A DNA stretch of 64,000 bases from positions 10,525 to 74,524 of the forward strand of contig JAEZVV010000071.1 in NCBI GenBank assembly GCA_023443095.1, given 5' to 3'. Each line of letters begins with the position of its first letter. Position 1 is the stretch's first letter. Both the position numbers and the translations under genes were made by a program. The DNA comes from Pseudomonadota bacterium (GTDB taxonomy: Bacteria > Pseudomonadota > Gammaproteobacteria > Burkholderiales > Burkholderiaceae_F). Of this stretch, positions 7,762 to 22,216 are shown piece by piece. The notes under the pieces are model-generated. The model made no database searches, was not told the origin of the DNA, and was given only the letters and a program-made list of their open reading frames with translations.

Positions 7762-7793
7762 ACCTGCAGCGGGCCGCGTGCCCGCTGCATCCA

Positions 7794-7821
7794 GGCCGCT
7801 CCCCGGAGCGGCTTTTTTTTT
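7794..7821 (+). terminator. rho-independent terminator of ilvD; its T-tract is the insertion site of the accessory element
   Basis: GCCGCTCC..GGAGCGGC stem followed by T9 (7813-7821). A second hairpin, GCAGCGGG/CCCGCTGC, lies at 7766-7788. Confidence 0.6.
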
Positions 7822-7844
7822 GGGTATCCGGAACCGGGGGTGGG
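7822..7844 (+). repeat. terminal inverted repeat, transposase-proximal end: GGGTATCCGGAACCGGGGGTGGG
   Basis: Matches the reverse complement of 21725-21747 at 18/23 positions. It sits directly after the T9 run. Confidence 0.55.
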
Positions 7845-7859
7845 AGAGACGCCCCGGGT

Positions 7860-9272
7860 TCAGTCGAACTCGCCCGCCTCGATGAGGTCGCAGAGCGTGG
7901 GGATGTGGGCGCCAAGCCAGCGGACTTCGACCACTTCCTCGTACCGCTCCCGTGTGGGCCGGCGGATGGTCTTGATGGCTGAGGGGGCAAAGAAGTCCAT
8001 GGTTGCCTCGGCGGGCTCCGATGGAGAGGATGGAGTCTTGACGCGCTTGCGGACCATGACGCGCTCCTCGATCTTGGCGAGATTATGGTACAGCAGCCGC
8101 GCCCGCAGAATGCGGAAGCTCTGGCCTCGGGTGATCCGATTGGAGTCCTTGATAAAGCGATTGAGCGACTCCGTGTACCCGTTGGTGAACGGGTAGTCGA
8201 ACACCGCGAAGACGTGCTGGTGCCAGTTGTCCACGTCGCAGGCGAGGCGCCTGAACCAGTGCGCCACCCGAGGGTCCAGCGTCCGCTTCCACGTCTCGAA
8301 CTCCCTCTCGGCGGCCGCGCGGCTGGGGGCATCGTAGATGTCGAAGAACGCCTCCTTGGCCGCCTGTGCGACGCCGAGCAACGGGTACTTGGTTCGCAGC
8401 CTGTCGAGAACCGCCAGTTCGCTCGGATCGAGCTTGGCTTCGCGCTTGAGCAGCAGGTGGCGCTCATCCTTGAGCGACAGGCGCTCCGTCCGCGCCTCCT
8501 TGCCCTTCAGTTCGGTCTTCCGAATGTGCTTGCGGAGCGTTTCCACGGCCTCGACCGCCATGCGCATGACGTGGAACTTGTCGGCGACGACCGGAGCGTG
8601 CGGGAAGTAGGTCGCGGCCATCTGGCGGTAGGCATTCCAGAGGTCGGTCACGACGACCTCCACCTTGTGCTTGTCCGCCATCGCCGTGAAGTAGGCGTCC
8701 AGATGCTTCTTAGTGCGGCCCGGCAACAGCTCAACGAAGGTATTGGCTTCGACGTTCGTGATCACGCCGAGGTAGCCCTTCCCGATCTTGACCTCGTCGA
8801 TCCCGAGCACGCGCGGCGTCGTAGGCATGTGCTGTGCTTCCAGCACGTGGATGCGCTCATCGACGATGTTTCGCACCGTGCGGGGATCAATCCCGGTCTG
8901 CCGGGAGACTTCCTCGAAGGTGAGGCGCAGACCGTGCTTCTCGACGAACTCGACGAGCCGCTTGGTCGCCAACCGGTCCTCGTGAATGTCCTCTAGCCGC
9001 TCGTGAAAGGTCTTGCCGCACTTGACACACAGATACCGGTGGCGCGTCAGAACGAGCTTGAGCGGCTTGCCGAACGTTGGGGTGTCGGCCACTTCCTGCT
9101 GTGAGGTGCCGTGCCCGACAAAGGCGCTGGCGCCGCAGTGGCGGCAGGCCGAAGGCGGTGCGCTCGCCTTGACGCGGACCAGCGAGTACGGGGCGTCCGG
9201 CGCCGATCCCATCTCCATGAAGCTCAGCGAGGGCAGACCGAGCAGGTCGCGCCCTCCGAAACTGTCTGCCAT
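7860..9272 (-). CDS. ISL3 family transposase
   Basis: 470 aa. N-terminal zf-ISL3-like CRHCGAS...HG. DDE_Tnp_ISL3-like core (LGIDEVKIGKG, VVTDLWNAYR, VADKFHVMRM, NGYTESLNRFIK). GGAGGG SD before ATG 9272. Confidence 0.9.
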   Translation of the reverse strand: MADSFGGRDLLGLPSLSFMEMGSAPDAPYSLVRVKASAPPSACRHCGASAFVGHGTSQQEVADTPTFGKPLKLVLTRHRYLCVKCGKTFHERLEDIHEDRLATKRLVEFVEKHGLRLTFEEVSRQTGIDPRTVRNIVDERIHVLEAQHMPTTPRVLGIDEVKIGKGYLGVITNVEANTFVELLPGRTKKHLDAYFTAMADKHKVEVVVTDLWNAYRQMAATYFPHAPVVADKFHVMRMAVEAVETLRKHIRKTELKGKEARTERLSLKDERHLLLKREAKLDPSELAVLDRLRTKYPLLGVAQAAKEAFFDIYDAPSRAAAEREFETWKRTLDPRVAHWFRRLACDVDNWHQHVFAVFDYPFTNGYTESLNRFIKDSNRITRGQSFRILRARLLYHNLAKIEERVMVRKRVKTPSSPSEPAEATMDFFAPSAIKTIRRPTRERYEEVVEVRWLGAHIPTLCDLIEAGEFD

Positions 9273-9401
9273 CGCTCACCCTCCGGCATCGAGCCACGCC
9301 CCCTTGGTCTGCCTGCGGTCGCGCTGTTATGCTGTGACTGATTGAATGCAAACCGTACGCAACTGGTAGGCGTTTTGCTTCATACTATCACCGGAGCGAA
9401 C

Positions 9402-9590
9402 ATGGCGAAAGAGTCGTCCGTCACCGTCACGCTGCGCGTGCCGGAGAGCATCAGAGAGTTGTTGCGCGCGGCTGCCGAGAAAGACCACCGCAGCATGGCC
9501 AACATGGTGGAGGTGCTGATCCTGCGGCACTGCGAGTCCAATGGAATTTCGGTCGCGCGGAAACGAACAGTGCGGGCGACAAAGGAATAG
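9402..9590 (+). CDS. ribbon-helix-helix (CopG/Arc/MetJ-like) DNA-binding protein
   Basis: 62 aa. VTVTLRVPESIRELLRAAAEKDHRSMANMVEVLI fits a beta-strand plus two helices. GGAG lies 6 nt before ATG 9402. It is the first gene of the plus-strand cargo. Confidence 0.65.
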   Translation: MAKESSVTVTLRVPESIRELLRAAAEKDHRSMANMVEVLILRHCESNGISVARKRTVRATKE

Positions 9591-9642
9591 CGGCCGAGGC
9601 TCATCGGGTGAGCTTTAGACAATCCAAACTAACCAAGAACCA

Positions 9643-11367
9643 ATGCTTCCCCGTGAAAAGGCCAAATTTCCTGCTCTTCTGCGAGCGTTGCAGGGGGTCG
9701 TCCGCGCAGGGAAAACGCCAGAGCGTGTAGTCGCGGCCGTACTCAATGCAGTGTTGGATGAGCGTTACCCGCTGTTGGTTCGGTTGACTAGCAGCAAAGC
9801 TGTTCAGTCGCACCCGGCGGTGGCGAATTTTGTGCGCTGGCTTGTGCCCATGAATGTTGCCGAGATCGGTTTTTGGGTGAGTTCCGCGTACGCGCAGTTG
9901 GTTCTGCCCGAGTTTCGGCGGAAGCGGGCCATGTTCTTTACACCACCGATGATGGGCGAACGACTCCTCGACCAGATGGAGCGGGCTGGCGTGAACTGGG
10001 GAGCGGCACGCGTGATCGACATTGCCTGCGGTGGCGCCGCCTTCTTGGCGCCTGCGGGGTTGCGCATGGCGCAGCGGGTCGCGGCGACCGGCGCCACTGC
10101 CAATCAGGTGCTGGTCCATGTTGAGAGCCACCTGCACGGGATCGAGATCGAGCGCTTTCTCGCGAAGCTGTCGGTCACCTTTGTCGGCATGGCGCTCTAC
10201 CCGTGGATCGTCGCAGCAGGCCGGTTGCCGAAGCTCAGGGTCATCGTTGGGAACGCTATGGGGCGCCCTGCCATCCTGTCGGAGCGCTTTGATGCCGTGA
10301 TCTGCAATCCGCCTTACCGCAAGCTCACGAGTGAGGAAGCCGCCGAGCTTCCGGCCAAGCTCCAGCGGTTGGTCTACTTTCAACCGAACCTGTACAACAT
10401 GTTCATGGCCCGGTCGCTGAACCTGCTTTCTCCGATGGGTGTCGCTGGCCTGCTGACACCGATGAGCTTCCTTTCGGGGCGTTCATTTGTCCCACTGCGG
10501 CAGCATCTTGCGACCCAGCGGCGAGTAGCGAGCATCGACATCGTTGAACAGCGGCTCGGAGTCTTCCTGGGTGTGCAGCAGGACACGGCAATCAGCACCT
10601 TTGCCCCTCTTCTAAATCGCCCGACGCGGACCAAGGTGTTTGCCGCGAGTAGCGACCAGCGGTGGCACTCCGCCGGCAAGGTCGTCCTGCAGGCCACTGG
10701 CGCGCCGTGGGTGCTCCCCCGCAATGCGGACGACGCTACGCTTATCGCTCACAGCAACGGGCAGCGTCTCGCCGACTACGGCTACGAGCCCTGCATCGGC
10801 GACGTAGTCCCGCTCCGAGAGACGCGAGCCTTGTATGCAAGCCACGCTGAAGCCAAAGCGGCCGGAGTCAAGCATGCGGTGCCAATGCTGCGTGCCGCCG
10901 AGATTCGCTCCGACGGTAGCCTCGCATTCCCACGCGCAGGGCGCTCAGACTGCTTCCTTGACGCCAGCAGCAATGCTCAGGGGGTAATTCGGCTTCCGTG
11001 CGTGGCGCTTCATCGTGTCAGTTCGACGGACCAACGGCGGCGATTCGTGGCGGCCCCCGTGCCCATTGAGTTGCAGCAAACTCATGACGGAGTGATCGGA
11101 GAGAATCACGTCATCTTTCTGACCGCCACACGGCCGGATGCGCTTGCGCCGGACCTCTTGGTGCGCATCCTTGGCTCTGAGCCTGTGGATCGGATGTTCC
11201 GCTGTCGCTCTGGATCGGCCAACGTGTCCACCTACGAGCTGTCGCACCTGCCCATGCCTGATGCCTCGCTAGTGGAGCAGGCGCTGGCAGCCGGAGCCGA
11301 CATTGATACGGCGGTGCTCCGAGGTTACGGCATCGACTCGACCAATCATCAAGGCGCGCCACTATGA
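9643..11367 (+). CDS. N6-adenine DNA methyltransferase (gamma class, Eco57I/N6_Mtase-like), DrmMI-like
   Basis: Motif I VIDIACGGAAF and motif IV VICNPPY. About 250 aa of C-terminal region is a putative target-recognition domain. The stop overlaps the next start (ATGA). Confidence 0.85.
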   Translation: MLPREKAKFPALLRALQGVVRAGKTPERVVAAVLNAVLDERYPLLVRLTSSKAVQSHPAVANFVRWLVPMNVAEIGFWVSSAYAQLVLPEFRRKRAMFFTPPMMGERLLDQMERAGVNWGAARVIDIACGGAAFLAPAGLRMAQRVAATGATANQVLVHVESHLHGIEIERFLAKLSVTFVGMALYPWIVAAGRLPKLRVIVGNAMGRPAILSERFDAVICNPPYRKLTSEEAAELPAKLQRLVYFQPNLYNMFMARSLNLLSPMGVAGLLTPMSFLSGRSFVPLRQHLATQRRVASIDIVEQRLGVFLGVQQDTAISTFAPLLNRPTRTKVFAASSDQRWHSAGKVVLQATGAPWVLPRNADDATLIAHSNGQRLADYGYEPCIGDVVPLRETRALYASHAEAKAAGVKHAVPMLRAAEIRSDGSLAFPRAGRSDCFLDASSNAQGVIRLPCVALHRVSSTDQRRRFVAAPVPIELQQTHDGVIGENHVIFLTATRPDALAPDLLVRILGSEPVDRMFRCRSGSANVSTYELSHLPMPDASLVEQALAAGADIDTAVLRGYGIDSTNHQGAPL

Positions 11368-14195
11368 ACGCGTGGCAGAACGGCCGAGGTGGGCGTGACA
11401 ATCTGCCGCGTCGGCTGAAAGACCGCGAGGCTGCATTGAAGCGTCAGAGGGAACTGGCCTCACGCTCTGGTGTGCGACGCAAGGTGCCGCCGGACATGCC
11501 AGCAGATGTTGCCAAAACATCTGCGGTCGAGGCGCCGGCACCAAACCAAGCGCCCGAAGTCATGCTGGCGGGACAGCCGATTCTGTCGCTGCTGACCGAG
11601 GGCAAAGGCAAGCCGTTACCACAGCATTTGACGGCGGCCCTGACCGAAGCGGTCGATGCCTATTTGCGTGCTGCCCAATCCGGTACGCGCGAGCTGCTGC
11701 TTCTGTGGCCGGGATCGCTTACTTGTCTGCCCCTTATTCACTCCATTGCCACCCTCGAACGGTGGGCCAATGGCTACAAGCTAGGTTTCCGGGCCGCGCT
11801 CTACCCGGCCACCAAGGCTTCGTTCCGGGAGCTCAACCACCTGTTCGTAGATCGCGACGAAATCGACGCCATGCACGTGGACGTGCAGTCTGTGAGCAAC
11901 CCGCCGGGCGCTCTGTCCAAAGAGCGTTGCGACGAGAAGGACCTCATGTTCTACGCCCTCAACAGCATGCGGGCGGAAGCAGTGACGGAGGGTCTGCAGC
12001 CGTGCCTCAACGAACTGCTGCCGCACTTTGACATCGTGACCGGCGAGTGGACTGAAATTGCAAAGCTCAACTATGGCCGCCACTACCTTGACCACCTCTC
12101 GAAAAAGCTGAAGCGACTCGCCTACAAGCGTGACCTGCGAGAGCGTGTGCTGCCCGTGCTAGGGCAGGCTCAGACGGTGCCTGACGCCATCTTTGGGCTG
12201 TCGCACAAGATGAATAAGCGTCAGATCGAGGACGCTCTCAAAAACCTGAAAAGGTTGGGCTCGCTGAATGTCATCCTGCTTGATGCGACCCGGTCGTCGT
12301 TCGCTCGCACCGAGAAGCTGATGCGCCGAATCGGCGCCGTGCTTGCGTTGATTGACGAGGTGTTTGGCGCCAAGGGACCAGGTGTGCTGATCTTTACAAA
12401 CGACGCTCGGCAAATGTTGATGCTGCGTGCAGCGCTGAATCGTGAAGAGGCGCGCCACAACTTTCGCATTGGTCCGACGCGGGGCCTGTGCCAGCGTGAT
12501 AACAACCTCGGCTTGCAGCCGCAGCCCTATCAGCCTCCGGTTGCCCCAGCACCGAGTGTCATTAGCGTCGAGATCACCGACCGGGAATCGGCGAGGCTCC
12601 TAAACCAAGCCTTTCGAATGGGGCGCGATCTCGCAAGCTTCGAGCCGGCGGCCGCCGCGTTGCAGTCTGCCGCGAAGCACCTGCAGACAATGGTCAATCT
12701 GCCAGCCTCGGCCGGGGTGTTGCACGGCTGGCTCAACGAGACGCATGCCGACAGCGAACAGAGGCGACATTTCGACTGGATCGACTATCGTGCCCGGCTA
12801 CGGAACGCCGCAAAGGAAGTGCCCATTGAATTGGCGGCCCGCCTTGCCGAGTGGGCCGATGTCGCCGACAAGCTTCTACGCGCTCACGAGGACGGCACTC
12901 CACTCGCGCGAGCATTGGTGTCACGCATCAAGCTCCGCGCCGGGAACGACGCTCGGGTGCTGGTGCTGACAGTCAACCCGTTCTACGCCAAGCTTGCTTC
13001 CCAGTTCTTCCACGCCGACCCGGCCAACGAACCGCTGCGAGACCGAGTCCGCTTTATCGGCGTTACCCACCTCCGGCCGCAAGTGGAGACAGGGTGGGCC
13101 ACGCACGTTGTCGCCTGTGCGCTGTCGCCCGAGCTGCTGCGGTGGACGGTCACCACACCAACCCTACCGGGTCCGCTGGACTTTCTCCTTACCCAACAGA
13201 GCGCGGTCAGCGCGAACTATGCGCTAGAACCGGTACTTCAGCACCCGAGCTTCGCCCCGTACTTCGAGCGTGTGCGGGCGATTTGCGGCCCCATCGCAGC
13301 CGTGCGGGGCCTGCTGACCGGTATCCCGCCCGGTCACGACTACGAGCCGCCACTCATCACCCTGCCGCCGAAAGGCTCCGATGGAGAAGGGAGCAGCGGG
13401 AGTGACGACGGCGAGCGCTGGCCGACCGACTACGTGGACATCGTGCTCGACGATGGTCGCCACATCCAGCGCGGGCGCGGCGCGCGGGTCTATGTCTACG
13501 ACCCGTCCGCCCGGGACAGTCGCACCATGGGCTTCCGCGCGGCACACGCTGAGGAGTTGCGCCCGGGCTGGCTACTTTTCGTCATGTCGGACGAGTTGCG
13601 CGATGCGGCGGAAGCGACCTTTGCGCTAGCAGGCATTACCTTCGCCGAAGCAAACCGCTACGAACAGATACTGCGGCTCTACCACGCGCAAGTGCGCCTC
13701 GCGGTGCAGGCCCGATTCCCCGGCTGCAACGTCGCTGACGCTGCGCGCGGCATTCACGGCGCCATGATCGCGCTCGATCCGAAGGCGAAGACAGTTTCGG
13801 CCACAAACATTCGGTACTGGATCAACCTGAAGCGGGCCGAGGACACGCCTTACGTTGATTTGATGCCACAGGCACCACGGCATCAGGAGACCTTTAGGCT
13901 GTTCATGATGGCGCTGGGTTTCGACGCAAAGGACATCAACAACTTCTGGCAGGGCGCAGTGCGCCCGGTACGCGGTAGCCGCATCTCCGATGGGCAGAAC
14001 CTGATCGACCACTACGCTCGGGTGTTGTTCGATCCGGAAGCGGCGGCTGCATACGACCGCCTCACCCCAGCCATGCTGGACAGCCTGCGCGCCAACGTGC
14101 TGCACAACGTCGCCGAGGTGGTCGAGGCGCGCCTTGTAGTTGTCGCGCCTCCTACGGAAGACGACGAGCCAAAAATCGCTGCGAATTTCGCCTGA
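11364..14195 (+). CDS. 943-aa DISARM-associated protein of unknown function (occupies the DrmD/DrmE position)
   Basis: Long ORF translationally coupled to the MTase gene. No Walker A, DEAH, HKD or nuclease motif was seen. It has only faint helicase-like segments (LLLLWPGSL, VILLDATRSSF, VLIFTNDARQML). Confidence 0.8.
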   Translation: MNAWQNGRGGRDNLPRRLKDREAALKRQRELASRSGVRRKVPPDMPADVAKTSAVEAPAPNQAPEVMLAGQPILSLLTEGKGKPLPQHLTAALTEAVDAYLRAAQSGTRELLLLWPGSLTCLPLIHSIATLERWANGYKLGFRAALYPATKASFRELNHLFVDRDEIDAMHVDVQSVSNPPGALSKERCDEKDLMFYALNSMRAEAVTEGLQPCLNELLPHFDIVTGEWTEIAKLNYGRHYLDHLSKKLKRLAYKRDLRERVLPVLGQAQTVPDAIFGLSHKMNKRQIEDALKNLKRLGSLNVILLDATRSSFARTEKLMRRIGAVLALIDEVFGAKGPGVLIFTNDARQMLMLRAALNREEARHNFRIGPTRGLCQRDNNLGLQPQPYQPPVAPAPSVISVEITDRESARLLNQAFRMGRDLASFEPAAAALQSAAKHLQTMVNLPASAGVLHGWLNETHADSEQRRHFDWIDYRARLRNAAKEVPIELAARLAEWADVADKLLRAHEDGTPLARALVSRIKLRAGNDARVLVLTVNPFYAKLASQFFHADPANEPLRDRVRFIGVTHLRPQVETGWATHVVACALSPELLRWTVTTPTLPGPLDFLLTQQSAVSANYALEPVLQHPSFAPYFERVRAICGPIAAVRGLLTGIPPGHDYEPPLITLPPKGSDGEGSSGSDDGERWPTDYVDIVLDDGRHIQRGRGARVYVYDPSARDSRTMGFRAAHAEELRPGWLLFVMSDELRDAAEATFALAGITFAEANRYEQILRLYHAQVRLAVQARFPGCNVADAARGIHGAMIALDPKAKTVSATNIRYWINLKRAEDTPYVDLMPQAPRHQETFRLFMMALGFDAKDINNFWQGAVRPVRGSRISDGQNLIDHYARVLFDPEAAAAYDRLTPAMLDSLRANVLHNVAEVVEARLVVVAPPTEDDEPKIAANFA

Positions 14196-14231
14196 AACGG
14201 CGCTCTACTTCAACCGATCCTCCCGCGCGCT

Positions 14232-17200
14232 ATGCCAACTGTTCGTAGCAACCCCGACGCCATCGCCACGTCGCTCAAGGAGGCGGTCGCCGACGCCCTT
14301 GGCAACATCGTCTTCGGTCACAGTTCCGGTAGCGGCGAATTCGGGGTCGCTGTCTACGGCGCACAGCCAAGCCGGCTGTTTGTCTCCGGCTTCCTCTTGC
14401 CCCAACGGGAGACTGACGACGGCGACGAGGTAACGAGCCCGATCTGGATTTCCTCGCACGGCCTCGACCTGCAGGTTGCCGCCCACGGCACAGGGACGAT
14501 CACGCTGCAGCCGCGCTTCGCCGTATACCTGCGGGTGTTTCCAACGGCTGCCGACCTGCTGCGTCCGGACTGCGCACTTCGCTTACCGCAGCTCAATGCG
14601 GCCGTGCGAGGGCAGTTGGCTGCGGTCTATCGAACTGCCTTAGCCGCGCGCTGGGCGACGCTGCAGAGCAAGTACGCAACGCGCAGCAAGTGCCCGCAGT
14701 GGAAAGACATCCAAGCCGAGGAATACGCAAAGGCGTGCAAGCAACTGGGCGTGCCTGATTGCGACTGGATGCAGCCGCAGGCGCTGGAGGCGCAGGCGGC
14801 ACCGCCGCCGGAGAACAATGCCGAAAATGAAGGCGGCGCGCAGGAGATGGCTGCTGCTGGCGGGGCGAAGAGCTTCGAATTCGATGCGGCCAGTGACGCC
14901 CTCTTCGAAGTGGTCGAACCTCCGCCCAAGTGGCTCCGCCTAGAAATGGAGCCGCCGCCTCTAACGCTCGATCCGTATGCAGCGCCGGATGTGCGTGCCG
15001 CCGCCATCGAGGCGAACGAGGCGGCAATGGAACAGTACGTGCAGCATCGCATCGCGGCGTGGCTCGCCGACACCGATCCGATCACAGGCGGCGCGCTGTG
15101 GGTGTTCCGCAAGGGCGAGACGGTGAAGGCGTCCGAGCGCGTCAACTGGGACGCCTACCTCGCCGCCATGCGGGCGCGCAATGCCGACCCCTACGTCCCC
15201 GAGATCAAGCCCTGCTGGGACATCGACGTGGTCGTGGACTACACCGACCCGACCCGCTTCAACCTGCACCTTGCTCTGGAGAACCACAGCACGCCGGTGG
15301 TCCGTGGCAGCGACCGGATCGAGCACGCGCTGTTCCAGACCGAAGTCGAGGTGTACCTGCCGGTCGCCACGCACCGCAGCCTCCGGCTTGACCGGGTGGA
15401 GCCGTCCTACCGCTACAACCGCTACCTCACATACCCGGCCCTAGGCTTCAACGGCAGCGTGGAGGAGTTGGCGACCGACGAAGGCTACAAGCGCCTGCGC
15501 ACGACGTGGGCGCCGCGCTTCGTGCAGCCGCGCGTGCGTCCGCTCCCATATCCGGGCGTGGTGTGCGGGCTGCGGGCGTTGGCTACGGCCCCGGACCTCT
15601 CCGGACTCTCACCGCTCGTGACCGAGTTCCAGAAGTGGATCGCGGAGCTGCCTGCTCGTATCGACCCCACGGCTGGCGCGCGGGACGCGGCCGAGGCCAA
15701 GCGCGAGCAAGAGGCGTTCGCGGCCCACATCAAGGCGTGGACGCTGGAGTCCGAGGCCATCGCCGCCGGTATTGCGATCCTCGAAGAGTCGCGCGTCCAA
15801 TGGAGTGCGCCCGGCCCGCAGGCCGATCCCAAGGGCATTCCGTACGAAGCGTGGCAAGCCATGAACGAGACCATGGCCAACCTGATGCAGCGCCAGCGAG
15901 GCGACGACAACGGCCAGTGGTACCTGTTCCAATTGGCGTTCATCCTCGCTTCGCTGCCGGCGGTGGTTACCCGGATGCCGGAGTTCCGCCACCACTACAA
16001 CCCGAAGCGCGACGACAGTGTGACGCTGCTCTACTTCAGCACCGGCGGCGGCAAGTCGGAAGCGTTCTTCGGCTTGCTCGCCTTCACCCTGTTCTTCGAC
16101 CGGCTGCGCGGCAAGACGTTTGGTGTGACCGCGCTCGTGCGCTACCCGCTCCGACTTCTGACCGTGAACCAGTCGCAGCGGATGGCGCGCATGCTGGCGC
16201 AGGCCGAGCAGGTGCGGGCGGCCCGCCACTACCCCGGTGCGCCGTTCGCCATCGGTTTCTGGGTCGGCAGCGGCAGCACACCCAACCACCACAACGACCG
16301 AGGCGTGAAGGACGTGCCGTTCGTGGACGAGGTAAAGGTTTCCGAAGCCAAGCTGATGGACGCCAACGCTCACTACGCCGCCGCGCGGAAGGCTTGGCGC
16401 AAGCTGCCGCACTGCCCGTTCTGCGGCGGAGAGACCGGCCTGCGGCGCCTGCGCGACGCCGATGGTGGCACGCTGGCCCACGTGTGCTTCAACGCCAAGT
16501 GCTTCTCCCAGCGTAACGGACTGGGCACACCGCTGCCGTTCTACATCTGCGACGAAGACATCTACGACCTCGCGCCGGCGGTGGTCTTGGGTACCGTCGA
16601 TAAGCTGGCGATGATCGGCCACAGTGCGACCACGCTGCGCCAGGTGCTTGCGATGTTTGGCGCCGCGCCGTGGCGCCACGTCACCACTGGACGCCTGCAC
16701 ATGCCGACGTTGAAGCATCTCGCTGACGGGCCCGGCGCACACGGCTACGAGGCTGTTCACCCGTGCTACGCCGGCGGGGTAAAACTCTTCCACGACCCGC
16801 AGCCGGCGCTGATCGTGCAGGACGAAGCGCACCTCTTGGACGAGTCGCTGGGTAGCTTCTCCGGTCTCTTCGAGTCGGCGCTCGACGCCGTGTTTTCTGA
16901 GCTTGCAAAGGCGCAGCGCGGGGTCATTGCGACTGACGCCCACGGCAAGCGCCGCCGGGCCAAGGTGATCGCCGCCTCGGCCACTGTGGCTGACCCTGAG
17001 CGGCAGTTGCAGCACCTTTACCAGCGCCACATTCCGGCCACACAGTTCCCGCACCCGGGCCCGGACATCTACAGCTCGTTCTACGCCGGACCGCAACCGC
17101 CGGATGAGGTGGGCCGCGCCGCGCTCCCGGCCGACCTCGTCGAACTGCGGGCGAAGACCGGCCGTTTTTACCGCGCAATCATGACTAACGGGCGGCCGCA

Positions 17201-18410
17201 CACCGCGACCTCCGTAACCGTGCTGGCGACCTTCCACTCCATTGTCACCAGTCTGCTGGGACAACTCCTCCCGGACGATCCGACCGAGCACGCGGCGGCG
17301 CGCGACCTCCTGCTGCGCCACCTGTCGCCGGCGGTGACTGAGACGTTCCTGCGGGACGCGCTGCAGGCGTCCACCGCCAGCGAACTGGCAACTCTGATCG
17401 ACCTGCACCGGGTCGCCCTTACCTACGTCACCAACAAGAAGGGCGGCGACCAGATACAAGCGGCCGAGGCGGAGGAGACGCGCAAGCGCCATGCTGCTCT
17501 GCAGTTGCCCTTCAATGGGCTGCGCGCAGAGCTGATCACCGGCTCAGTCGATCAGGGCGCGATCAACAACACGGTCGAGGCCACACGCAACCGGCCCGAC
17601 CCAGGGCAGCCGTTCCGACCGCTCGACGGTGAGTTGCGCTCCATCGTCGCGACCTCCGCTATTTCGCACGGCGTGGACATCGAGGAACTGAACTCGATGT
17701 TCTTCGCCGGCCTCCCCTCGGACGTAGCTGAGTACATCCAAGCCTCATCTCGGATCGGCCGCAGCCACGTCGGCTTTTCGCTCCTGATCCCGACGCCGCA
17801 GCGCCGCCGCGACCGCTACGTGGTGGAGGTGTTCGACATCTTCCACCGCTTCTTGGAACGGATGGTGAAGCCGGCCGCCATCGACCGTTGGGCCGAGCGG
17901 GCAGTGTTGCGGGTCCTGCCGAGCTTCTTCCAGTCGGCGGTGTGCGGCGCCATTGCGCTGGGCGAACTGATGACCCTGCCGGACGACGAAAAGGGCAAGT
18001 GGCGGCTGTTGCAATACGTGGCGCAGGTGCTCGACCTGCACGCACAGGACAAGAAGGCGTTCGAGGACATGGTGACCGACTTCATCGAGTTGGCAATTGG
18101 CCTCACCGACAACTTCGCGCCCGACGGCAAGGAGCACTACCAGCGCATGGTGCGCGAGAACATCCGCTCGTTCTTGGACGAGATGCGCATGGGGGCCTAC
18201 AAGAACACAGCCGTCTTCAACTATTTCAACGACCAGAATGTGCTGCGTCGGCCAATGACCTCGCTGCGCGACGTGGATGAAGCCGGCACTCTGCGCCGGG
18301 GCGGCAGCGACGAGAATCCCGACGGTCGCGGCCGGTTGCACGACGCGCAGGTCATCGCCGTCATGGACTTCATCCGTTACGGCACGGCCAAGGCAGGAGA
18401 AAGCGAATGA
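14232..18410 (+). CDS. drmA: DrmA-like superfamily-2 DEAH helicase
   Basis: Walker A STGGGKSEAF, DEAH box IVQDEAHLL and motif VI SSRIGRSHVG. A CxxC...CxxxC zinc-ribbon insert lies at 16413-16502. The gene is followed by a DUF1998 gene. Confidence 0.85.
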   Translation: MPTVRSNPDAIATSLKEAVADALGNIVFGHSSGSGEFGVAVYGAQPSRLFVSGFLLPQRETDDGDEVTSPIWISSHGLDLQVAAHGTGTITLQPRFAVYLRVFPTAADLLRPDCALRLPQLNAAVRGQLAAVYRTALAARWATLQSKYATRSKCPQWKDIQAEEYAKACKQLGVPDCDWMQPQALEAQAAPPPENNAENEGGAQEMAAAGGAKSFEFDAASDALFEVVEPPPKWLRLEMEPPPLTLDPYAAPDVRAAAIEANEAAMEQYVQHRIAAWLADTDPITGGALWVFRKGETVKASERVNWDAYLAAMRARNADPYVPEIKPCWDIDVVVDYTDPTRFNLHLALENHSTPVVRGSDRIEHALFQTEVEVYLPVATHRSLRLDRVEPSYRYNRYLTYPALGFNGSVEELATDEGYKRLRTTWAPRFVQPRVRPLPYPGVVCGLRALATAPDLSGLSPLVTEFQKWIAELPARIDPTAGARDAAEAKREQEAFAAHIKAWTLESEAIAAGIAILEESRVQWSAPGPQADPKGIPYEAWQAMNETMANLMQRQRGDDNGQWYLFQLAFILASLPAVVTRMPEFRHHYNPKRDDSVTLLYFSTGGGKSEAFFGLLAFTLFFDRLRGKTFGVTALVRYPLRLLTVNQSQRMARMLAQAEQVRAARHYPGAPFAIGFWVGSGSTPNHHNDRGVKDVPFVDEVKVSEAKLMDANAHYAAARKAWRKLPHCPFCGGETGLRRLRDADGGTLAHVCFNAKCFSQRNGLGTPLPFYICDEDIYDLAPAVVLGTVDKLAMIGHSATTLRQVLAMFGAAPWRHVTTGRLHMPTLKHLADGPGAHGYEAVHPCYAGGVKLFHDPQPALIVQDEAHLLDESLGSFSGLFESALDAVFSELAKAQRGVIATDAHGKRRRAKVIAASATVADPERQLQHLYQRHIPATQFPHPGPDIYSSFYAGPQPPDEVGRAALPADLVELRAKTGRFYRAIMTNGRPHTATSVTVLATFHSIVTSLLGQLLPDDPTEHAAARDLLLRHLSPAVTETFLRDALQASTASELATLIDLHRVALTYVTNKKGGDQIQAAEAEETRKRHAALQLPFNGLRAELITGSVDQGAINNTVEATRNRPDPGQPFRPLDGELRSIVATSAISHGVDIEELNSMFFAGLPSDVAEYIQASSRIGRSHVGFSLLIPTPQRRRDRYVVEVFDIFHRFLERMVKPAAIDRWAERAVLRVLPSFFQSAVCGAIALGELMTLPDDEKGKWRLLQYVAQVLDLHAQDKKAFEDMVTDFIELAIGLTDNFAPDGKEHYQRMVRENIRSFLDEMRMGAYKNTAVFNYFNDQNVLRRPMTSLRDVDEAGTLRRGGSDENPDGRGRLHDAQVIAVMDFIRYGTAKAGESE

Positions 18411-20680
18411 GCCCCAACCCCGCGCCGATCCACGGCTTCGACGACGAGAACGAAGAGCGTCGCGAACGCACCGCCCCCACCATGAGCCGCTCATGGGGGC
18501 AGCTCGCGACGGCGTACGCCCCCGGCGCCTTCTTCACGTTCGAGGGCGGGCTGGGCGCCTGCCTCGCCCAGTCCGATGGGCAGGCCGGTCTGCAAGAGGC
18601 CAACATTTCGCCCACGGTACGCCACCAGATCGTGATGCGCTTCGAGGACGCGGTGAAGTCGTGGTTCAACGCCGCGATGCACTGCCGGCCCAACGACAGC
18701 AAAAGGCCGCCGGTGCTCGCTTCACAGTGCGTGTCGCAGTCGCTGATCAACAGCAACTACAACGGGCTGCGGCCGGTAGATGGCTCGCGCTACGTGTTCC
18801 TGTCACCCGAGCGCATGGGCTACGTCCCAGCGCCGCTAACTTTCGTCTGCAACCACTGCGGGCTCTACCGCTACTTCGGCAGTGTGCGTGACTTTGCCGC
18901 GCGCAAGGACGCGGCGCTCAACGTAAAGTGCTCGCACAGCGCCGGCAACTGCCACTGGCGTCAACTCGATGTGATCTTCGTCCACTGGTCCGGCAACTGG
19001 GAGCCAGTGCGTCCCGGTAAGTGGTACTGGGACAACAACGCAAAGGAAGTGCAGGAGCCGTTCGACCGCTGTCGGCAGTGCGGCGGCAATGAGTTCCGGC
19101 TAGAGACGCGGCACAGCGAATCGGCCATCGGTCGCTGGTACTTTGTTTGCGCCAACCCCGCGTGCAAGCATGAGGACCACGACGGTTGGGTGAAGAACGA
19201 CCACGACACGCTCGACATCGTGCGCGAGGACTTCATCCGCTTGCCGGCAGTGGCACACATGGAGCCGGTGTCCTACCGGGCGTCGGCAGCCTACTACCCG
19301 CAGGCTGATCAGTTCATCTTGTTCGCGGACCACCAAGAGGGCCTGCTGGCTTTGCTCGACCCGAGCCGCCAAAACGACCTCAAGGACTTCATCGCGCAGC
19401 GCTTCGGATTCGGCCGCGCCCGCCCGTCGATGAGCGAGATCGAAACCATCCTCAAGCAGTCAGAGAAGGGCGCAGCGTCGCTCGCCCGGTTCAGGCTCAA
19501 GGCGGAGATGCTGGGGAAGCTCCCACAGCCGCTGACGGGGCTCTACGTCGAGATGGCCGAATCGCTCAAGGACGATTTGCGCGAGATCGAAAATAGTTGG
19601 TATTCCGAGGGGTTGGTGCGCGAGAAAAACAGTCTTCCGGTGGCGCTCATCAACGGCATCGACGAGCGCAAGAACGACTTCGACGCGCGATACGATCCCT
19701 ACCGGCTGGTGGTAGAACACGAGGCGCTGAAACAGAATCACTTGGAGGCGCCCCGGGAGGCGACCGGGCGCTCGCCCTTCGTCCACTTCGACCGACTCGA
19801 CAAGGACTTGGCGCCCAAGGACGAGGCAGAGCAGGCACAGCAGGAAGCCGCGACGCGGCTGATGCTCGACAGGCTGGGGCTGGACACCATGGGCCTCATT
19901 CGCAACTTCAAGTTGTGCAAGTTCACGTACGGCTTTACACGAGTCAGCGCGACGCCCATCGTCGAGAAACACCGCATCCGAATGCCGGTACGGCTCAACC
20001 TGTTCCCGCCCGTGAAGATGGAACAGGGAGCATCGCGCACGCCAATCTACGTCATCACGCAGGAGAACGAAGCGTTCTACGTGCGACTCAACCCAGCGAT
20101 GGTGTACCAATGGCTGGGCAGTCTCAATCTCGCCGATATGTTCACGTGGGACCCAGCGGGCGAGGTGCCGCTTGGCGCCCTGCTCTTGGAGCGGGCGCAG
20201 CCGATGCAGCGTTTCCTTGCTAACGTGCATCGGGAACAGGACCCCCTCGCTTACTACTACACCTACACCCTGCTCCATACCTATTCGCACGTGATGATGC
20301 GGGCCATAGCCGAACTCTCGGGGCTCGATGCCACCTCGCTTGGCGAGTACCTGTTCCCGGCCGACCTGTCCTTCGTCATCTACCGCAGCGGCACCACGCT
20401 CGATCTAGGCAACCTGTCGTCGCTCTGGCGAAACGACAACGCCAACTTTCTGCGCCACATCGGCGAGCCGACGACGCTGGCCTGCAATTCGGGCAGCCTG
20501 TGCGCGGAGCGTGGTGGCGCCTGTCCGGACTGCATCCTGATCCCGGAGCAGTCGTGCATCGCCCAGAACCAGCTCCTCTCGCGCAGCGTGCTGCGGGGCG
20601 GTCCCCGTCCGCGCGAGGACGGGGGCACCCACCGCATTCCCGGGTACCTCGACATCGTCCATGCTGCCTTGGTCTCCTGA
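18407..20680 (+). CDS. drmB: DrmB-like DUF1998 protein
   Basis: C-terminal TLLHTYSHVMMRAI plus the Cys cluster CNSGSLCAERGGACPDCILIPEQSC (DUF1998 signature). ATGA overlap with the helicase gene. Confidence 0.85.
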   Translation: MSPNPAPIHGFDDENEERRERTAPTMSRSWGQLATAYAPGAFFTFEGGLGACLAQSDGQAGLQEANISPTVRHQIVMRFEDAVKSWFNAAMHCRPNDSKRPPVLASQCVSQSLINSNYNGLRPVDGSRYVFLSPERMGYVPAPLTFVCNHCGLYRYFGSVRDFAARKDAALNVKCSHSAGNCHWRQLDVIFVHWSGNWEPVRPGKWYWDNNAKEVQEPFDRCRQCGGNEFRLETRHSESAIGRWYFVCANPACKHEDHDGWVKNDHDTLDIVREDFIRLPAVAHMEPVSYRASAAYYPQADQFILFADHQEGLLALLDPSRQNDLKDFIAQRFGFGRARPSMSEIETILKQSEKGAASLARFRLKAEMLGKLPQPLTGLYVEMAESLKDDLREIENSWYSEGLVREKNSLPVALINGIDERKNDFDARYDPYRLVVEHEALKQNHLEAPREATGRSPFVHFDRLDKDLAPKDEAEQAQQEAATRLMLDRLGLDTMGLIRNFKLCKFTYGFTRVSATPIVEKHRIRMPVRLNLFPPVKMEQGASRTPIYVITQENEAFYVRLNPAMVYQWLGSLNLADMFTWDPAGEVPLGALLLERAQPMQRFLANVHREQDPLAYYYTYTLLHTYSHVMMRAIAELSGLDATSLGEYLFPADLSFVIYRSGTTLDLGNLSSLWRNDNANFLRHIGEPTTLACNSGSLCAERGGACPDCILIPEQSCIAQNQLLSRSVLRGGPRPREDGGTHRIPGYLDIVHAALVS

Positions 20681-21518
20681 GCTGCGGCAGGCGTTCCTAC
20701 GGCTTGCCCCGCAGGCGGCTGTTTCCGGCGCGCTTTGCCGGGCTGCGGCCGACGAGCGCTTCAGCGGGACACTCCGGCTGCGCGACATCTGTACCGCTTC
20801 CGGCCTGGCAGAATCTCGTAGCAAGACCGTCGAGCAGGTACTCTCGGCGGGTGCGGACCTCGGGCTCTTCGTCCGTCGTAGCGATGTCGAATGGTCTTCA
20901 GGCGCTGATCCACGTTTTTTCGCCATGCTGGCGACGGCATTGGAAGCGGCCGCTCTGTACCGCGAGCAGGTCCACGTCGATGCCAATCAGGTCGAGATCG
21001 TGCTCACGCCGCCCGGCAACCCATCCCGTCTGTGTGACTCGCTGCGCCAGCGCGGCTGGGCGGAAGCCGACTTGGAGCACACCGAACCCGTCTTGTTGCA
21101 CCTCGCCCATCAGGCGAACACGCGCTTCGTGATTCTGTCGCCGTTCATCGACTACGGCGGCGCGACCAACATGCTGGCACTTTTCCAAGCGACGCCTGTC
21201 ACTGCGCGCCGGGTGCTCATAACCCGCTGCCCCGACGGCGTGGTTCCGCCTGCGCTCCATCCGCTTCTGCCGTCGCTCACTGGGCTGAATGTCGCAGTCC
21301 ACAGCTACTGGCTGCCTCGTCCCGGCAACGGTTATGAGACATTCCACGCGAAAATTGTTTTGTCAGACGACCGAGCTGCTTACCTCGGCTCCGCCAACAT
21401 GACCCAAGCTTCGCTGTCTCTCAGCATGGAGTTGGGAACCTTCCTTCGGGGCTCGGGTGTCACGACGTTGATGAGCGTCATTGATGCAATCTTGACCGTA
21501 GCGCCGAAGATCAACTAA
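20661..21518 (+). CDS. drmC: DrmC-like phospholipase D family nuclease
   Basis: Single HKD motif FHAKIVLSDDRAAYLGSANMT. 20-nt overlap with the preceding gene. Confidence 0.85.
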   Translation: MLPWSPELRQAFLRLAPQAAVSGALCRAAADERFSGTLRLRDICTASGLAESRSKTVEQVLSAGADLGLFVRRSDVEWSSGADPRFFAMLATALEAAALYREQVHVDANQVEIVLTPPGNPSRLCDSLRQRGWAEADLEHTEPVLLHLAHQANTRFVILSPFIDYGGATNMLALFQATPVTARRVLITRCPDGVVPPALHPLLPSLTGLNVAVHSYWLPRPGNGYETFHAKIVLSDDRAAYLGSANMTQASLSLSMELGTFLRGSGVTTLMSVIDAILTVAPKIN

Positions 21519-21605
21519 GTCACCCCGCCAACAGACGACGGTGAGGTCGTTCTTGGGGGCCGCTGCATCAGCGATGGCTAGGTAAATTGGGCGACGCCGT
21601 CCCGA

Positions 21606-21747
21606 GGCCACCCACGCCGTTTTCCGTTTCGGGGGTGCGGCCACCAACATCCTGACTCACCGCGCCACCCACGCTGGATTCCGTTTTGGCGTTGCGGCCT
21701 CCCGGTGCCCCTGATACCCCGGCACCCACGCTCCTTTCCGGAAACCC
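21606..21747 (+). repeat. three direct copies, 57 bp apart, of a CACCCACGC-N4-6-TTCCG unit; the third copy is the terminal IR
   Basis: CCCAC cores at 21611, 21668 and 21725. Copies 1 and 2 share about 32 of 39 positions (GCCACCCACGC..TTCCGTTT.GG.GTGCGGCC.CC). Confidence 0.6.
21725..21747 (-). repeat. terminal inverted repeat, cargo-distal end (reverse complement GGGTTTCCGGAAAGGAGCGTGGG)
   Basis: Pairs with 7822-7844 and is followed directly by T8 (21748-21755). Confidence 0.55.
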
Positions 21748-21815
21748 TTTTTTTTAGGCCTAGCCCAGGCCCGCCAGGGTTCGTTCACCAGCGAGGCGTT
21801 GTTTCAGGCCCCGCA

Positions 21816-22049
21816 TCAACGGCGCTTGTCGTTGCGGATCAGGGTCTGCTTGAAGCGGTTCTGGCGCGCCTGGTCGTATTCGTCGTGCGCGCGTTTCTTG
21901 TCGAGGCCCAGTCGGCGTTCGAAAAACTCGAACCAGACCAGGGCCAGCGCGAGCGGCGCCACGATCCACCACCATGAGAGTTCGCCGACATAACTGACGT
22001 TGAGCAGTTTCAGCACGATCAGGGCAAGGCCGAGCCAGACGAGATACAT
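21816..22049 (-). CDS. small Trp-rich membrane protein (TIGR04438-like)
   Basis: MYLVWLGLALIVLKLL...ELSWWWIVAPLALALVWFEFFE followed by a basic tail. Start taken at the internal ATG 22049. Confidence 0.65.
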   Translation of the reverse strand: MYLVWLGLALIVLKLLNVSYVGELSWWWIVAPLALALVWFEFFERRLGLDKKRAHDEYDQARQNRFKQTLIRNDKRR

Positions 22050-22216
22050 GGTGCGAGCGCGCGAGGACTGAGTGATACGAGTCACTATAACCGCGCCGGA
22101 CAAGAATCCGGCAAGCGCCGCGACCGGGCTTGTGCACCGATATGCGGGATCCTCCGTTAGTATCTGCAGTCATCGGGCTTCCCCTCCCTTTGCCCGACCT
22201 CTTACATGGAGTCTGT

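What the first reader, a model, noticed from the sequence alone, without database searches (positions are those of the whole stretch)
7813..21755. The whole defence locus appears to be passenger cargo of one 13.9-kb ISL3-type transposon inserted in the ilvD terminator
Seen: GGGTATCCGGAACCGGGGGTGGG (7822-7844) and the reverse complement of 21725-21747 (GGGTTTCCGGAAAGGAGCGTGGG) match at 18/23 positions, and at 11 of the first 12. The left repeat is directly preceded by T9 (7813-7821, the tail of the ilvD terminator hairpin). The right repeat is directly followed by T8 (21748-21755). The only transposase (ISL3 family, intact, 7860-9272) ends 16 bp inside the left repeat. I found no matching terminal repeat in the 130 bp upstream of its start codon (9273-9400). 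Established: ISL3 elements have terminal IRs of roughly 15-40 bp and make 8-bp target duplications, and some (for example ISPpu12) carry passenger genes. From memory, Pseudomonas ISL3 members have termini starting GGGTAT, which needs an ISfinder check. Inference: a T9 tract was the target, T8 was duplicated, and the RHH-to-DrmC operon moves as cargo. That would be a compact vehicle for horizontal spread of a large defence system.
Basis: partly seen in the sequence, partly recalled or inferred. Interest (0 to 1): 0.75.

Follow-up and report, generated by a model that had tools for sequence, protein, structure and literature searches.

The report
Defence operon inside an ISL3 transposon
A 13.9-kb block holding a DISARM-like anti-phage operon and one ISL3 transposase gene is a single transposon that landed in the T-run of the ilvD terminator, and near-identical genomes without it show the untouched site.

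Summary
Window 7822-21747 (13,926 bp) is one ISL3-family unit transposon. It has imperfect 23-bp terminal inverted repeats (18/23), an intact ISL3 transposase, a ribbon-helix-helix (RHH) gene and a five-gene DISARM-like operon.

- **Empty site:** two metagenome contigs, 98-99.5% identical in the flanks, read ilvD - hairpin - T8 (or T7) - AGGCCTAGCCC with no insert. The filled site has T9 and T8.
- **End architecture:** the transposase-distal end holds three phased copies of the inner repeat motif, 57 bp apart. All four relatives whose distal end was read (transposase 43-61% identical) have the same layout.
- **Relatives with both ends read:** one carries a mer operon, one an RHH plus methylase/helicase pair (unambiguous 8-bp duplication TCTTTTTT), and one a second DISARM-like operon (13,880 bp, T8/T8).
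- **Target:** four clade elements sit in the T-run of an intrinsic terminator.
- **Cargo exchange:** an 86%-identical RHH-to-DrmC cassette sits in a different ISL3 backbone at another locus.

ISL3 elements with passenger genes are known (ISPst2, GGGTATCCGGAA ends), and ISSm4-type elements carry type I R-M. This is therefore a new variant of a known kind, not a new class. Transposition itself was not tested.

The parts
7793..7821 (+). ilvD intrinsic terminator: GC hairpin plus T9. The T-run is the insertion target, and 7814-7821 is the left copy of the 8-bp target duplication.
   Evidence: Terminator scan; RNA fold z -5.0; the empty site in L012 has the same hairpin with T8.
7822..7844 (+). Transposase-proximal terminal inverted repeat (IRR), GGGTATCCGGAACCGGGGGTGGG. 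It holds one copy of the GGAAnnnnGnGTGGG motif.
   Evidence: Homology with the 80%-identical relative L006 stops exactly at this tip. The same motif sits at the same place in L006, L007, L094 and L096.
7860..9272 (-). Intact ISL3-family transposase, 470 aa.
   Evidence: Pfam PF01610, PF14690 and PF13542. NCBIfam NF033550 scores 272 bits against a cut-off of 180. Relatives are of equal length.
9273..9401 (.). Divergent control region between the transposase and RHH genes. The RHH-proximal ~75 bp (about 9327-9401) are conserved. They probably hold the promoter and operator.
   Evidence: Alignment of five elements. The spacer is 129-141 bp in the four elements where both start codons were located. 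That it contains the promoter and operator is inferred.
9402..9590 (+). Ribbon-helix-helix (CopG/Arc-type) protein, 62 aa. Probable regulator of the backbone.
   Evidence: Pfam RHH_5 and Arc. It is 71-76% identical in L006, L096, L097 and L098, although their cargo differs and their transposases are only 43-80% identical.
9643..11367 (+). N6-adenine DNA methyltransferase (Eco57I/N6_Mtase type). Cargo gene 1.
   Evidence: Pfam; PADLOC MTase_II 4.5e-122.
11364..14195 (+). 943-aa protein with no family match. Cargo gene 2, and conserved in every operon of this subtype.
   Evidence: No hit in Pfam, PADLOC, NCBIfam or PDB sequences. Proteins of 923-945 aa sit at the same position in L094, L098 and the P0132 and P0137 loci.
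14232..18410 (+). DrmA-like helicase, 1392 aa. Cargo gene 3.
   Evidence: PADLOC DrmA 1.4e-86. NCBIfam DISARM_DrmAS scores 357 bits against a cut-off of 950.
18407..20680 (+). DrmB-like protein, 757 aa. Cargo gene 4.
   Evidence: PADLOC DrmB 1.9e-17. NCBIfam DrmB_fam scores 39 bits against a cut-off of 240.
20661..21518 (+). DrmC-like phospholipase-D nuclease, 285 aa. Cargo gene 5.
   Evidence: Pfam PLDc_2; PADLOC DrmC 3.3e-12. NCBIfam scores 48.7 bits against a cut-off of 133.
21611..21626 (-). Inner repeat 3 of the distal end (CGGAAAACGGCGTGGG). Putative extra transposase-binding site.
   Evidence: (family D7). It lies 57 bp from repeat 2.
21668..21683 (-). Inner repeat 2 of the distal end (CGGAATCCAGCGTGGG).
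   Evidence: It lies 57 bp from the terminal repeat.
21725..21747 (-). Transposase-distal terminal inverted repeat (IRL). It reads GGGTTTCCGGAAAGGAGCGTGGG from the tip inward.
   Evidence: The empty-site break point is at 21747/21748.
21748..21755 (+). T8, the right copy of the 8-bp target duplication.
   Evidence: Empty alleles carry a single T8 or T7.

Best explanation
Window 7822-21747 is one 13,926-bp unit transposon of the ISL3 family. Its single transposase recognises a 23-bp terminal repeat next to its own 3' end. At the far end it recognises a matching terminal repeat backed by two more phased copies of the inner motif. Everything between the ends moves as passenger: a small RHH regulator and a five-gene DISARM-like operon of adenine methylase, a 943-aa unknown protein, and DrmA-, DrmB- and DrmC-like proteins.

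The element inserted into the T-run of the ilvD intrinsic terminator and duplicated 8 T's. It belongs to a small ISL3 clade in which the transposase and RHH form the backbone and the cargo varies: DISARM-like operons, a methylase-helicase pair, a mer operon, and an unidentified cargo that begins with a secreted protein.

- **Shown:** the boundaries, the duplication, the empty site, the intact transposase, the conserved end architecture, and related cargo-laden elements at other sites.
- **Inferred:** movement by copy-out/paste-in through a circle, as reported for ISL3 members; binding of the transposase to the three distal repeats; control of the divergent promoters by the RHH protein; present-day activity.
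For: - **Empty site.** L012 and L013 have no insert. The joined flanks align at 857/866 ungapped, with break points at 7820/21747. The filled site has T9+T8 and the empty site T8 or T7, so about 8 bases were duplicated.
- **Filled allele.** It recurs at 99.8-100% identity in five other samples.
- **Transposase.** Intact ISL3 transposase.
- **No near repeat.** No repeat lies next to its start codon.
- **Phased distal repeats.** Core spacings are 57/57 in the window, 56/57 in L007, 55/57 in L096, 45/57 in L097 and 56/57 in L098. More distant ISL3 elements show the same (L016 55/45, L109 56/46). The 45-46 and 55-57 classes differ by about one helical turn. Three same-strand motifs within 140 nt occurred in 0 of 200 shuffles.
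- **Complete relatives.** L007 is 3,035 bp with merP-merT-merR-tnp. L096 is 6,502 bp with RHH, an N6_N4 methylase and a ResIII helicase, and a perfect duplication TCTTTTTT. L094/L097 is 13,880 bp with RHH and the same five-gene operon, T8/T8.
- **Sharp boundary.** Homology with L006 (transposase 80%) ends exactly at the repeat tip.
- **Second site.** L098 carries an 86%-identical RHH-to-DrmC cassette next to a different gene, bounded by a clade-type distal end.
- **Literature.** ISPst2 has IRL GGGTATCCGGAATTTCTGGTTGAT, 8-bp AT-rich duplications and passenger genes (PMC6305408). ISL3 members have circular intermediates (bioRxiv 10.1101/2023.06.07.543989).
Against: - The two terminal repeats differ at 5 of 23 positions. 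Alone they are not statistically remarkable.
- The duplication is a homopolymer, so its length is known only to within one base at this site.
- Only one copy of this exact element was found, always at the ilvD site. No second insertion site of the same element was seen, and no circle junction.
- The same DISARM-like operon also occurs with no ISL3 transposase gene called in the stretch shown upstream (P0132 and P0137 loci). The cargo is therefore not tied to the transposon.
- The homology break points with L098 (9358 and 21517) show that cargo can be swapped between backbones. The cargo could have entered this backbone after it inserted.
Confidence: 0.9

Rival explanations
1. The ISL3 backbone (transposase, RHH and both ends) inserted at the ilvD terminator with no cargo or different cargo. 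The DISARM-like cassette was then swapped in by homologous recombination with a related transposon. The 13.9-kb unit as seen today has therefore never itself transposed.
For: L098 shares 86% nucleotide identity with the window only over 9358-21517. That interval starts in the conserved RHH promoter and ends at the DrmC stop. Its transposase N-terminus is only 43% identical and its distal end differs. The RHH gene and its upstream 45 bp are conserved enough (74-78% nucleotide identity) to act as a recombination anchor.
Against: There is no obvious second homologous anchor downstream of DrmC. Cargo-laden elements of similar size have clean duplications at other sites (L094/L097 T8/T8, L096 TCTTTTTT), so loaded elements do transpose. 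No intermediate allele (backbone only) was seen at this site among eight contigs spanning it.
Confidence: 0.07
2. An ordinary short IS of about 1.5 kb landed beside a defence island that had arrived earlier by another route. The distal repeat match is a coincidence.
For: The terminal repeat pair alone is within chance expectation. Some related DISARM-like operons lie in islands with tyrosine integrases and have no ISL3 gene called in the stretch shown upstream.
Against: No repeat lies near the transposase start. The empty site lacks both the IS and the island and keeps one T-run. The distal end has the three-copy phased architecture found at the distal ends of four relatives with other cargo. 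The T-run is duplicated around the whole 13.9 kb.
Confidence: 0.02
3. The structure is a genuine ISL3 unit transposon but is now a fixed, inactive relic that no longer moves.
For: Only one insertion site is known for this exact element. The repeats are imperfect (18/23). A sister element, L098, has a transposase gene disrupted after about residue 105.
Against: The transposase ORF is full length with all three domains. Presence and absence alleles coexist with 98-99.5% identical flanks, which argues for a recent event. Repeats of 18-21/23 are normal for the clade (L007 18/23, L096 21/23) and for ISPst2 (PMC6305408).
Confidence: 0.25

Closest known systems
ISPst2 / ISPpu12 group of the ISL3 family (passenger-carrying ISL3 elements of Pseudomonas and others)
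   Same: ISL3 DDE transposase. Termini begin GGGTATCCGGAA (ISPst2 IRL GGGTATCCGGAATTTCTGGTTGAT). Repeats are imperfect and about 24 bp long. Duplications are 8 bp, AT-rich and often homopolymeric (TTTTTAAA, CAAAAAAG). Passenger genes, including a small regulator, lie inside the ends (PMC6305408, Table 3). An ISPpu12-encoded regulator, TnpR, controls transposition (the title of Christie-Oleza 2010, cited in bioRxiv 10.1101/2023.06.07.543989).
   Different: Those elements are about 3 kb with 2-3 small passenger genes for metal or permease functions. Here the cargo is 12 kb of defence genes, and the regulator is an RHH protein. The inner part of the repeat differs (GnGTGGG versus GGTTGAT). The closest named ISL3 transposases found (ISStma11, ISSm4) are only 36-38% identical. 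ISPst2 and ISPpu12 sequences were not compared directly.
ISSm4-family ISL3 elements on plasmids (for example Azospira pAZI09, L109 2812-13336)
   Same: An ISL3 transposase sits at one end of a 10.5-kb element whose passengers are a complete restriction-modification system (type I hsdM, hsdS, hsdR and accessory genes). The element has terminal repeats, the 8-bp duplication ATTTTTTG, and two extra inner-repeat copies at the transposase-distal end, spaced 56 and 46 bp.
   Different: The transposase is 36% identical. The repeats start GGCT, not GGGT. The cargo is co-directional with the transposase gene and overlaps it, and there is no RHH gene. The T-run lies in the opposite orientation relative to the element. 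No description of its cargo was found in the searchable literature.
DISARM, classes 1 and 2 (DrmA, DrmB, DrmC plus a methylase and DrmD or DrmE)
   Same: DrmA-like helicase, DrmB-like protein and DrmC-like PLD nuclease in that order, preceded by a DNA methylase.
   Different: All curated NCBIfam DISARM models score far below their cut-offs (357 against 950, 39 against 240, 48.7 against 133). No DrmD or DrmE was detected. A 943-aa protein with no detectable family sits in their place. The methylase matches a type II/Eco57I-like model better than DrmMI.
Other transposons known to carry defence systems (Tn7-like and Tn3-family elements)
   Same: A transposase-bounded unit with defence genes as cargo and insertion at a preferred kind of site. 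This comparison rests on my own knowledge and was not tested here.
   Different: Different transposase superfamilies and multi-protein machineries. This element needs a single DDE transposase of an IS family and has IS-like ends.

Membership tests
ISL3 family transposable element | DDE transposase of the ISL3 family, with the ISL3 zinc ribbon and HTH | tested here: met
   Pfam PF01610 1.7e-50, PF14690 and PF13542. NCBIfam NF033550 scores 272 bits against a cut-off of 180.
ISL3 family transposable element | Terminal inverted repeats of about 15-40 bp | tested here: met
   23-bp repeats with 18/23 identical, at 7822-7844 and 21725-21747. They are conserved in position and sequence pattern in five relatives. 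The GGGTATCCGGAA tip matches published ISPst2 (PMC6305408).
ISL3 family transposable element | 8-bp target-site duplication, usually AT-rich | tested here: met
   T9 and T8 flank the element, against a single T8 or T7 in the empty alleles. The 8-bp duplication is unambiguous in clade member L096, TCTTTTTT.
ISL3 family transposable element | Compact IS size of about 1.2-2.3 kb with the transposase as the only gene | tested here: not met
   The element is 13,926 bp with six passenger genes. Passenger-carrying ISL3 elements are accepted members (ISPst2, 2,985 bp, PMC6305408; the ISSm4-type element of 10.5 kb). This makes it a unit transposon or transporter-IS form rather than excluding it.
ISL3 family transposable element | Transposition through an excised circular intermediate (copy-out/paste-in) | not testable with these tools
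   Reported for ISL3 members (bioRxiv 10.1101/2023.06.07.543989, references 21-22). No read-level data were available here.
DISARM defence system | Core genes drmA, drmB and drmC together | tested here: inconclusive
   PADLOC models hit all three (1.4e-86, 1.9e-17, 3.3e-12). All three NCBIfam models fall well below their curated cut-offs.
DISARM defence system | Class-defining partner genes (drmD plus drmMI, or drmE plus drmMII) | tested here: not met
   There is no DrmD or DrmE hit. The methylase gives only a marginal DrmMI hit (9.8e-5) against 4.5e-122 for a type II methylase model. The 943-aa partner has no family.
DISARM defence system | Protection against phage | not testable with these tools
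   Needs a phage challenge experiment.

The most novel reading that the evidence does not exclude
The element may represent an undescribed ISL3 subclade specialised as a defence-gene vehicle. Its features would be:
- a conserved transposase-plus-RHH backbone;
- asymmetric ends, with one transposase site next to the transposase gene and three helically phased sites at the far end;
- oriented insertion into the U-tract of intrinsic terminators, which leaves the host terminator intact;
- interchangeable cargo cassettes (DISARM-like operons, a methylase-helicase pair, a mer operon) that are swapped between backbones by recombination at the conserved RHH promoter.
Probability: 0.45. Interest if true: 0.65.

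Novelty: new variant of a known kind. Interest (0 to 1): 0.58.

Why it matters
This shows a concrete and very simple route for moving a large multi-gene anti-phage system. One IS-type transposase and two short ends move 12 kb of defence genes, with no integrase, conjugation genes or phage. The same backbone carries other defence or resistance cargo in distant bacteria, including a Hydrogenedentes genome, and the same cargo cassette appears in two different backbones. ISL3 unit transposons may therefore be an overlooked contributor to defence-island turnover.

Landing in terminator T-runs gives a safe harbour that spares host genes. It could also explain why such islands sit between convergent or tandem genes.

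The three phased repeats at one end are a testable feature of ISL3 end recognition. They also give a practical signature for finding the far boundary of cargo-carrying ISL3 elements, which annotation pipelines currently report only as an isolated transposase gene.

Tried and rejected
- A blastn search of the IS region against plasmids found only 66-71% fragments of other ISL3 genes.
- The single genome-contig scan with the transposase returned only two distant relatives, 31-36% identical, and not the source genome.
- The metagenome scan with the clade alignment added no new clade member. L014 is the same contig as L006 and L015 duplicates the L007 element; the rest were 36% identical or less. 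The viral scan gave one 35% hit.
- The first empty-site look-up failed because I used the TTG-extended ORF of the Trp-rich gene. The ATG-started 77-aa form worked.
- P0003 (transposase 68%), P0132 and P0137 had gene tables but no DNA, so their ends could not be read.
- The shorter DrmC call (197 aa) in L009 and L010 looked like a nonsense variant. It is only a gene-caller start choice, because the DNA is identical.
- A DrmB search in plasmids found nothing closer than 44%.
- No sigma-70 consensus promoter was found in 7600-9700 or 21300-22200, and no terminator after DrmC.
- GC content inside the element is only slightly lower than in the flanks (0.61-0.68 against 0.64-0.68), so it is not diagnostic.
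- Literature searches for ISL3 together with DISARM, anti-phage or cargo found no description of such an element.
- The paper on a Burkholderia thailandensis CDI transposon mentions ISL3 only in passing and is unrelated.
Full report
**1. The observation**

They match at 18 of 23 positions and at 11 of the first 12. The T9 is the tail of a strong hairpin that follows ilvD (-36.1 kcal/mol, z -5.0).

ORF 7860-9272 on the minus strand is a complete ISL3 transposase. Pfam finds the DDE_Tnp_ISL3, zinc-ribbon and HTH domains. NCBIfam transpos_ISL3 scores 272 bits against a cut-off of 180.

The repeat pair is not significant in isolation. The first 12 bases with up to two mismatches occur three times in the window, against 3.3 expected. 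The pair is not among the 25 longest of 544 inverted pairs in the region. The case therefore rests on position and on comparison.

**2. The empty site**

The 77-aa small Trp-rich protein encoded to the right of the element was looked up by exact sequence.

- Contigs L008-L011 carry the filled allele, at 99.8-99.95% identity to the window.
- L012 and L013 carry the ilvD 3' end, both hairpins, a single T-run (T8 in L012, T7 in L013) and then AGGCCTAGCCC. They run straight into the Trp-rich gene.
- The window flanks joined through T8 align to L012 at 857 of 866 positions without a gap.
- Megablast places the break points at window 7820 and 21747.

The whole interval 7822-21747 is therefore present or absent as one block. 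The T-run is present once in the empty allele and twice (T9 and T8) in the filled one. That is what an 8-bp duplication of a T-run predicts, to within one base of homopolymer uncertainty.

**3. The distal end is a real transposon end**

Reading inward from 21747, the inner half of the repeat (CGGAAnnnnGCGTGGGTG) occurs three times on the same strand, with cores 57 and 57 bp apart. The transposase-proximal end has one copy.

Relatives of the transposase were found by protein search, and their contigs were fetched. The table lists the clade members examined.

| Locus | Transposase identity to window | Cargo | Length | Distal core spacing (bp) | Target duplication or flank |
|---|---|---|---|---|---|
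| Window | - | RHH + DISARM-like operon | 13,926 bp | 57 / 57 | T9 / T8 |
| L007 | 61% | merP-merT-merR | 3,035 bp | 56 / 57 | GTTTTTTT / GTTTTTCG (6 of 8) |
| L096 (Hydrogenedentes MAG) | 48% | RHH, N6_N4 methylase, ResIII helicase | 6,502 bp | 55 / 57 | TCTTTTTT, perfect |
| L094/L097 | 50% | RHH + the same five-gene operon | 13,880 bp | 45 / 57 | T8 / T8 |
| L098 | 43% over the surviving N-terminal ~105 aa | RHH-to-DrmC cassette | not determined (contig cut in the transposase) | 56 / 57 | distal flank GATTTTTTT |
| L006 | 80% | RHH, then a secreted protein | not determined (contig cut) | not seen | proximal flank GATTTTTTT |

More distant ISL3 elements show the same three-copy arrangement at the end far from the transposase stop codon. 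L016 has spacings of 55 and 45 bp, and the ISSm4-type element L109 has 56 and 46 bp. L001 has at least two copies, about 54 bp apart. The two spacing classes differ by about 11 bp, one helical turn. This suggests phased protein binding, which is an inference.

Three same-strand motif hits within 140 nt never occurred in 200 shuffles of the window.

No repeat-like motif lies between the transposase start and the RHH gene in the window. The conserved intergenic alignment of five elements shows none either. Homology between the window and L006 ends exactly at the repeat tip.

**4. Anatomy and probable mechanism**

The order of parts is:

- terminator hairpin and T-run;
- IRR (7822-7844);
- transposase (minus strand);
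- a 129-bp divergent control region;
- RHH;
- methylase, the 943-aa unknown protein, DrmA-like, DrmB-like and DrmC-like genes;
- inner repeats 3 and 2;
- IRL (21725-21747);
- T8.

The RHH protein is 71-76% identical across five elements whose transposases are only 43-80% identical and whose cargo differs. The 75 bp upstream of its start codon are conserved. I therefore assign it to the backbone, as the likely regulator of the divergent transposase and cargo promoters. This would parallel the regulator TnpR of ISPpu12, which I know only from the title cited in bioRxiv 10.1101/2023.06.07.543989. That role is inferred.

ISL3 members are reported to form circular intermediates (same preprint). I therefore expect copy-out/paste-in of the whole 13.9 kb. 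This was not tested.

**5. Target choice**

In the window, L094, L096 and L007, the proximal repeat abuts a T-run that directly follows a stable GC hairpin (z from -2.9 to -5.0). This is the terminator of a gene convergent with the transposase in the window, L094 and L007. In L096 the contig ends before any such gene.

In all six clade insertions the T-run lies on the same strand relative to the element. The chance of that orientation agreement is about 0.03.

The simplest reading is the known ISL3 taste for AT-rich 8-mers. ISPst2 duplicates TTTTTAAA and CAAAAAAG (PMC6305408). In a genome of about 65% GC, such runs are mostly found at terminators. The orientation bias hints at something more specific. 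The insertion leaves the ilvD terminator intact.

**6. Cargo**

PADLOC recognises DrmA, DrmB and DrmC, and a type II-like adenine methylase. The curated NCBIfam DISARM models all score far below their cut-offs, and no DrmD or DrmE is present. The 943-aa protein matches nothing in Pfam, PADLOC, NCBIfam or PDB sequences. It is nevertheless conserved at the same position in every operon of this subtype. I call the cargo DISARM-like.

Of five operons of this subtype examined, three lie in ISL3 transposons of this clade: the window, L094/L097 and L098. Two have no ISL3 transposase gene called in the stretch shown upstream (the P0132 and P0137 loci). The P0137 operon lies near tyrosine integrases, and only about 1.3 kb upstream of it was shown.

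L098 shares 86% nucleotide identity with the window only from 9358, inside the RHH promoter, to 21517, the DrmC stop. Its backbone is different. Cassettes are therefore exchanged between backbones. This leaves a small chance that the window's cargo entered after insertion (rival 1).

**7. Comparison with what is known**

The element passes the ISL3 tests for transposase, repeats and 8-bp AT-rich duplication. It fails only the compact-size criterion, as do accepted passenger-carrying members such as ISPst2.

A tblastn search of plasmids showed that the ISSm4-family ISL3 transposase (36% identical) sits at the 3' end of a type I R-M operon on many plasmids. In Azospira pAZI09 I delimited a 10,525-bp element with repeats starting GGCT, the duplication ATTTTTTG, and the same extra inner repeats. 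R-M-carrying ISL3 unit transposons therefore already exist under an ISfinder name. I found no paper that describes their cargo, and none linking ISL3 to DISARM or other anti-phage cargo.

**8. Verdict**

The finding is a new variant of a known kind. It is a large, defence-laden ISL3 unit transposon from a small clade with a conserved RHH backbone, asymmetric one-plus-three ends and terminator T-run insertion.

The host is a GC-rich betaproteobacterium of the Burkholderiales type, judged from the 90%-identity cluster that its ilvD belongs to.

Activity, the circular intermediate, transposase binding to the inner repeats, RHH regulation and anti-phage function all remain to be tested.

Noticed in passing
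window 11364-14195: The 943-aa protein between the methylase and the DrmA-like gene has no match in Pfam, PADLOC, NCBIfam or PDB sequences. Proteins of 923-945 aa sit at the same position in every related operon seen (L094, L098, P0132 and P0137 loci). It looks like an uncharacterised fifth component of this DISARM-like subtype.
   Followed up: partly
L098 536-12732 compared with window 9358-21517: The RHH-to-DrmC cassette is 86% identical in nucleotides to the window's. It sits in a different ISL3 backbone: the transposase N-terminus is 43% identical, the gene is disrupted after about residue 105, and the distal end is different. It lies beside a TRAM/tRNA-U5-methyltransferase-like gene. The homology starts inside the conserved RHH promoter, which suggests cassette exchange by recombination.
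   Followed up: partly
L096 about 205-235; L097 about 13270-13300; L098 about 13010-13040: A conserved perfect palindrome, ACTACCGCATG-(3-4 nt)-CATGCGGTAGT, lies between inner repeats 2 and 3 at the distal end of three relatives. It is absent from the window and from L007. It could be a second protein-binding site or the cargo terminator.
   Followed up: no
L109 2812-13336 (Azospira sp. I09 plasmid pAZI09); L108 (Serratia pG5A4Y426): ISSm4-family ISL3 transposase genes overlap the 3' end of hsdR of a complete type I R-M operon on many enterobacterial, Aeromonas and other plasmids. In pAZI09 the whole 10,525 bp is bounded by 25-bp repeats and the duplication ATTTTTTG. It is therefore an R-M-carrying ISL3 unit transposon.
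   Followed up: partly
L016 4092-4300: A distant ISL3 relative (35% identical) has the three-repeat distal end directly followed by a small ORF (MKSLNISLPEPLDAF...) that looks like an RHH or antitoxin-type protein. About 650 bp separate it from the transposase gene. Small regulators next to the distal end may be common in this ISL3 subgroup.
   Followed up: no
window 7765-7814: Two consecutive strong hairpins follow the ilvD stop codon, at 7765-7789 and 7793-7814. Only the second is followed by the T-run. Both are retained in the empty-site contig L012.
   Followed up: partly
L006 2416-3542: The 80%-identical sister element is flanked on its transposase-proximal side by an IS3-family element (rve and HTH_Tnp_1 ORFs). 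Its first cargo gene after RHH encodes a protein with a signal peptide, not a methylase.
   Followed up: no
L007 4310-4741: In the mer-carrying relative a MerR gene overlaps the transposase start by 4 bp on the same strand and takes the place of the RHH gene. This recalls the MerR-like regulator reported for ISPpu12.
   Followed up: no
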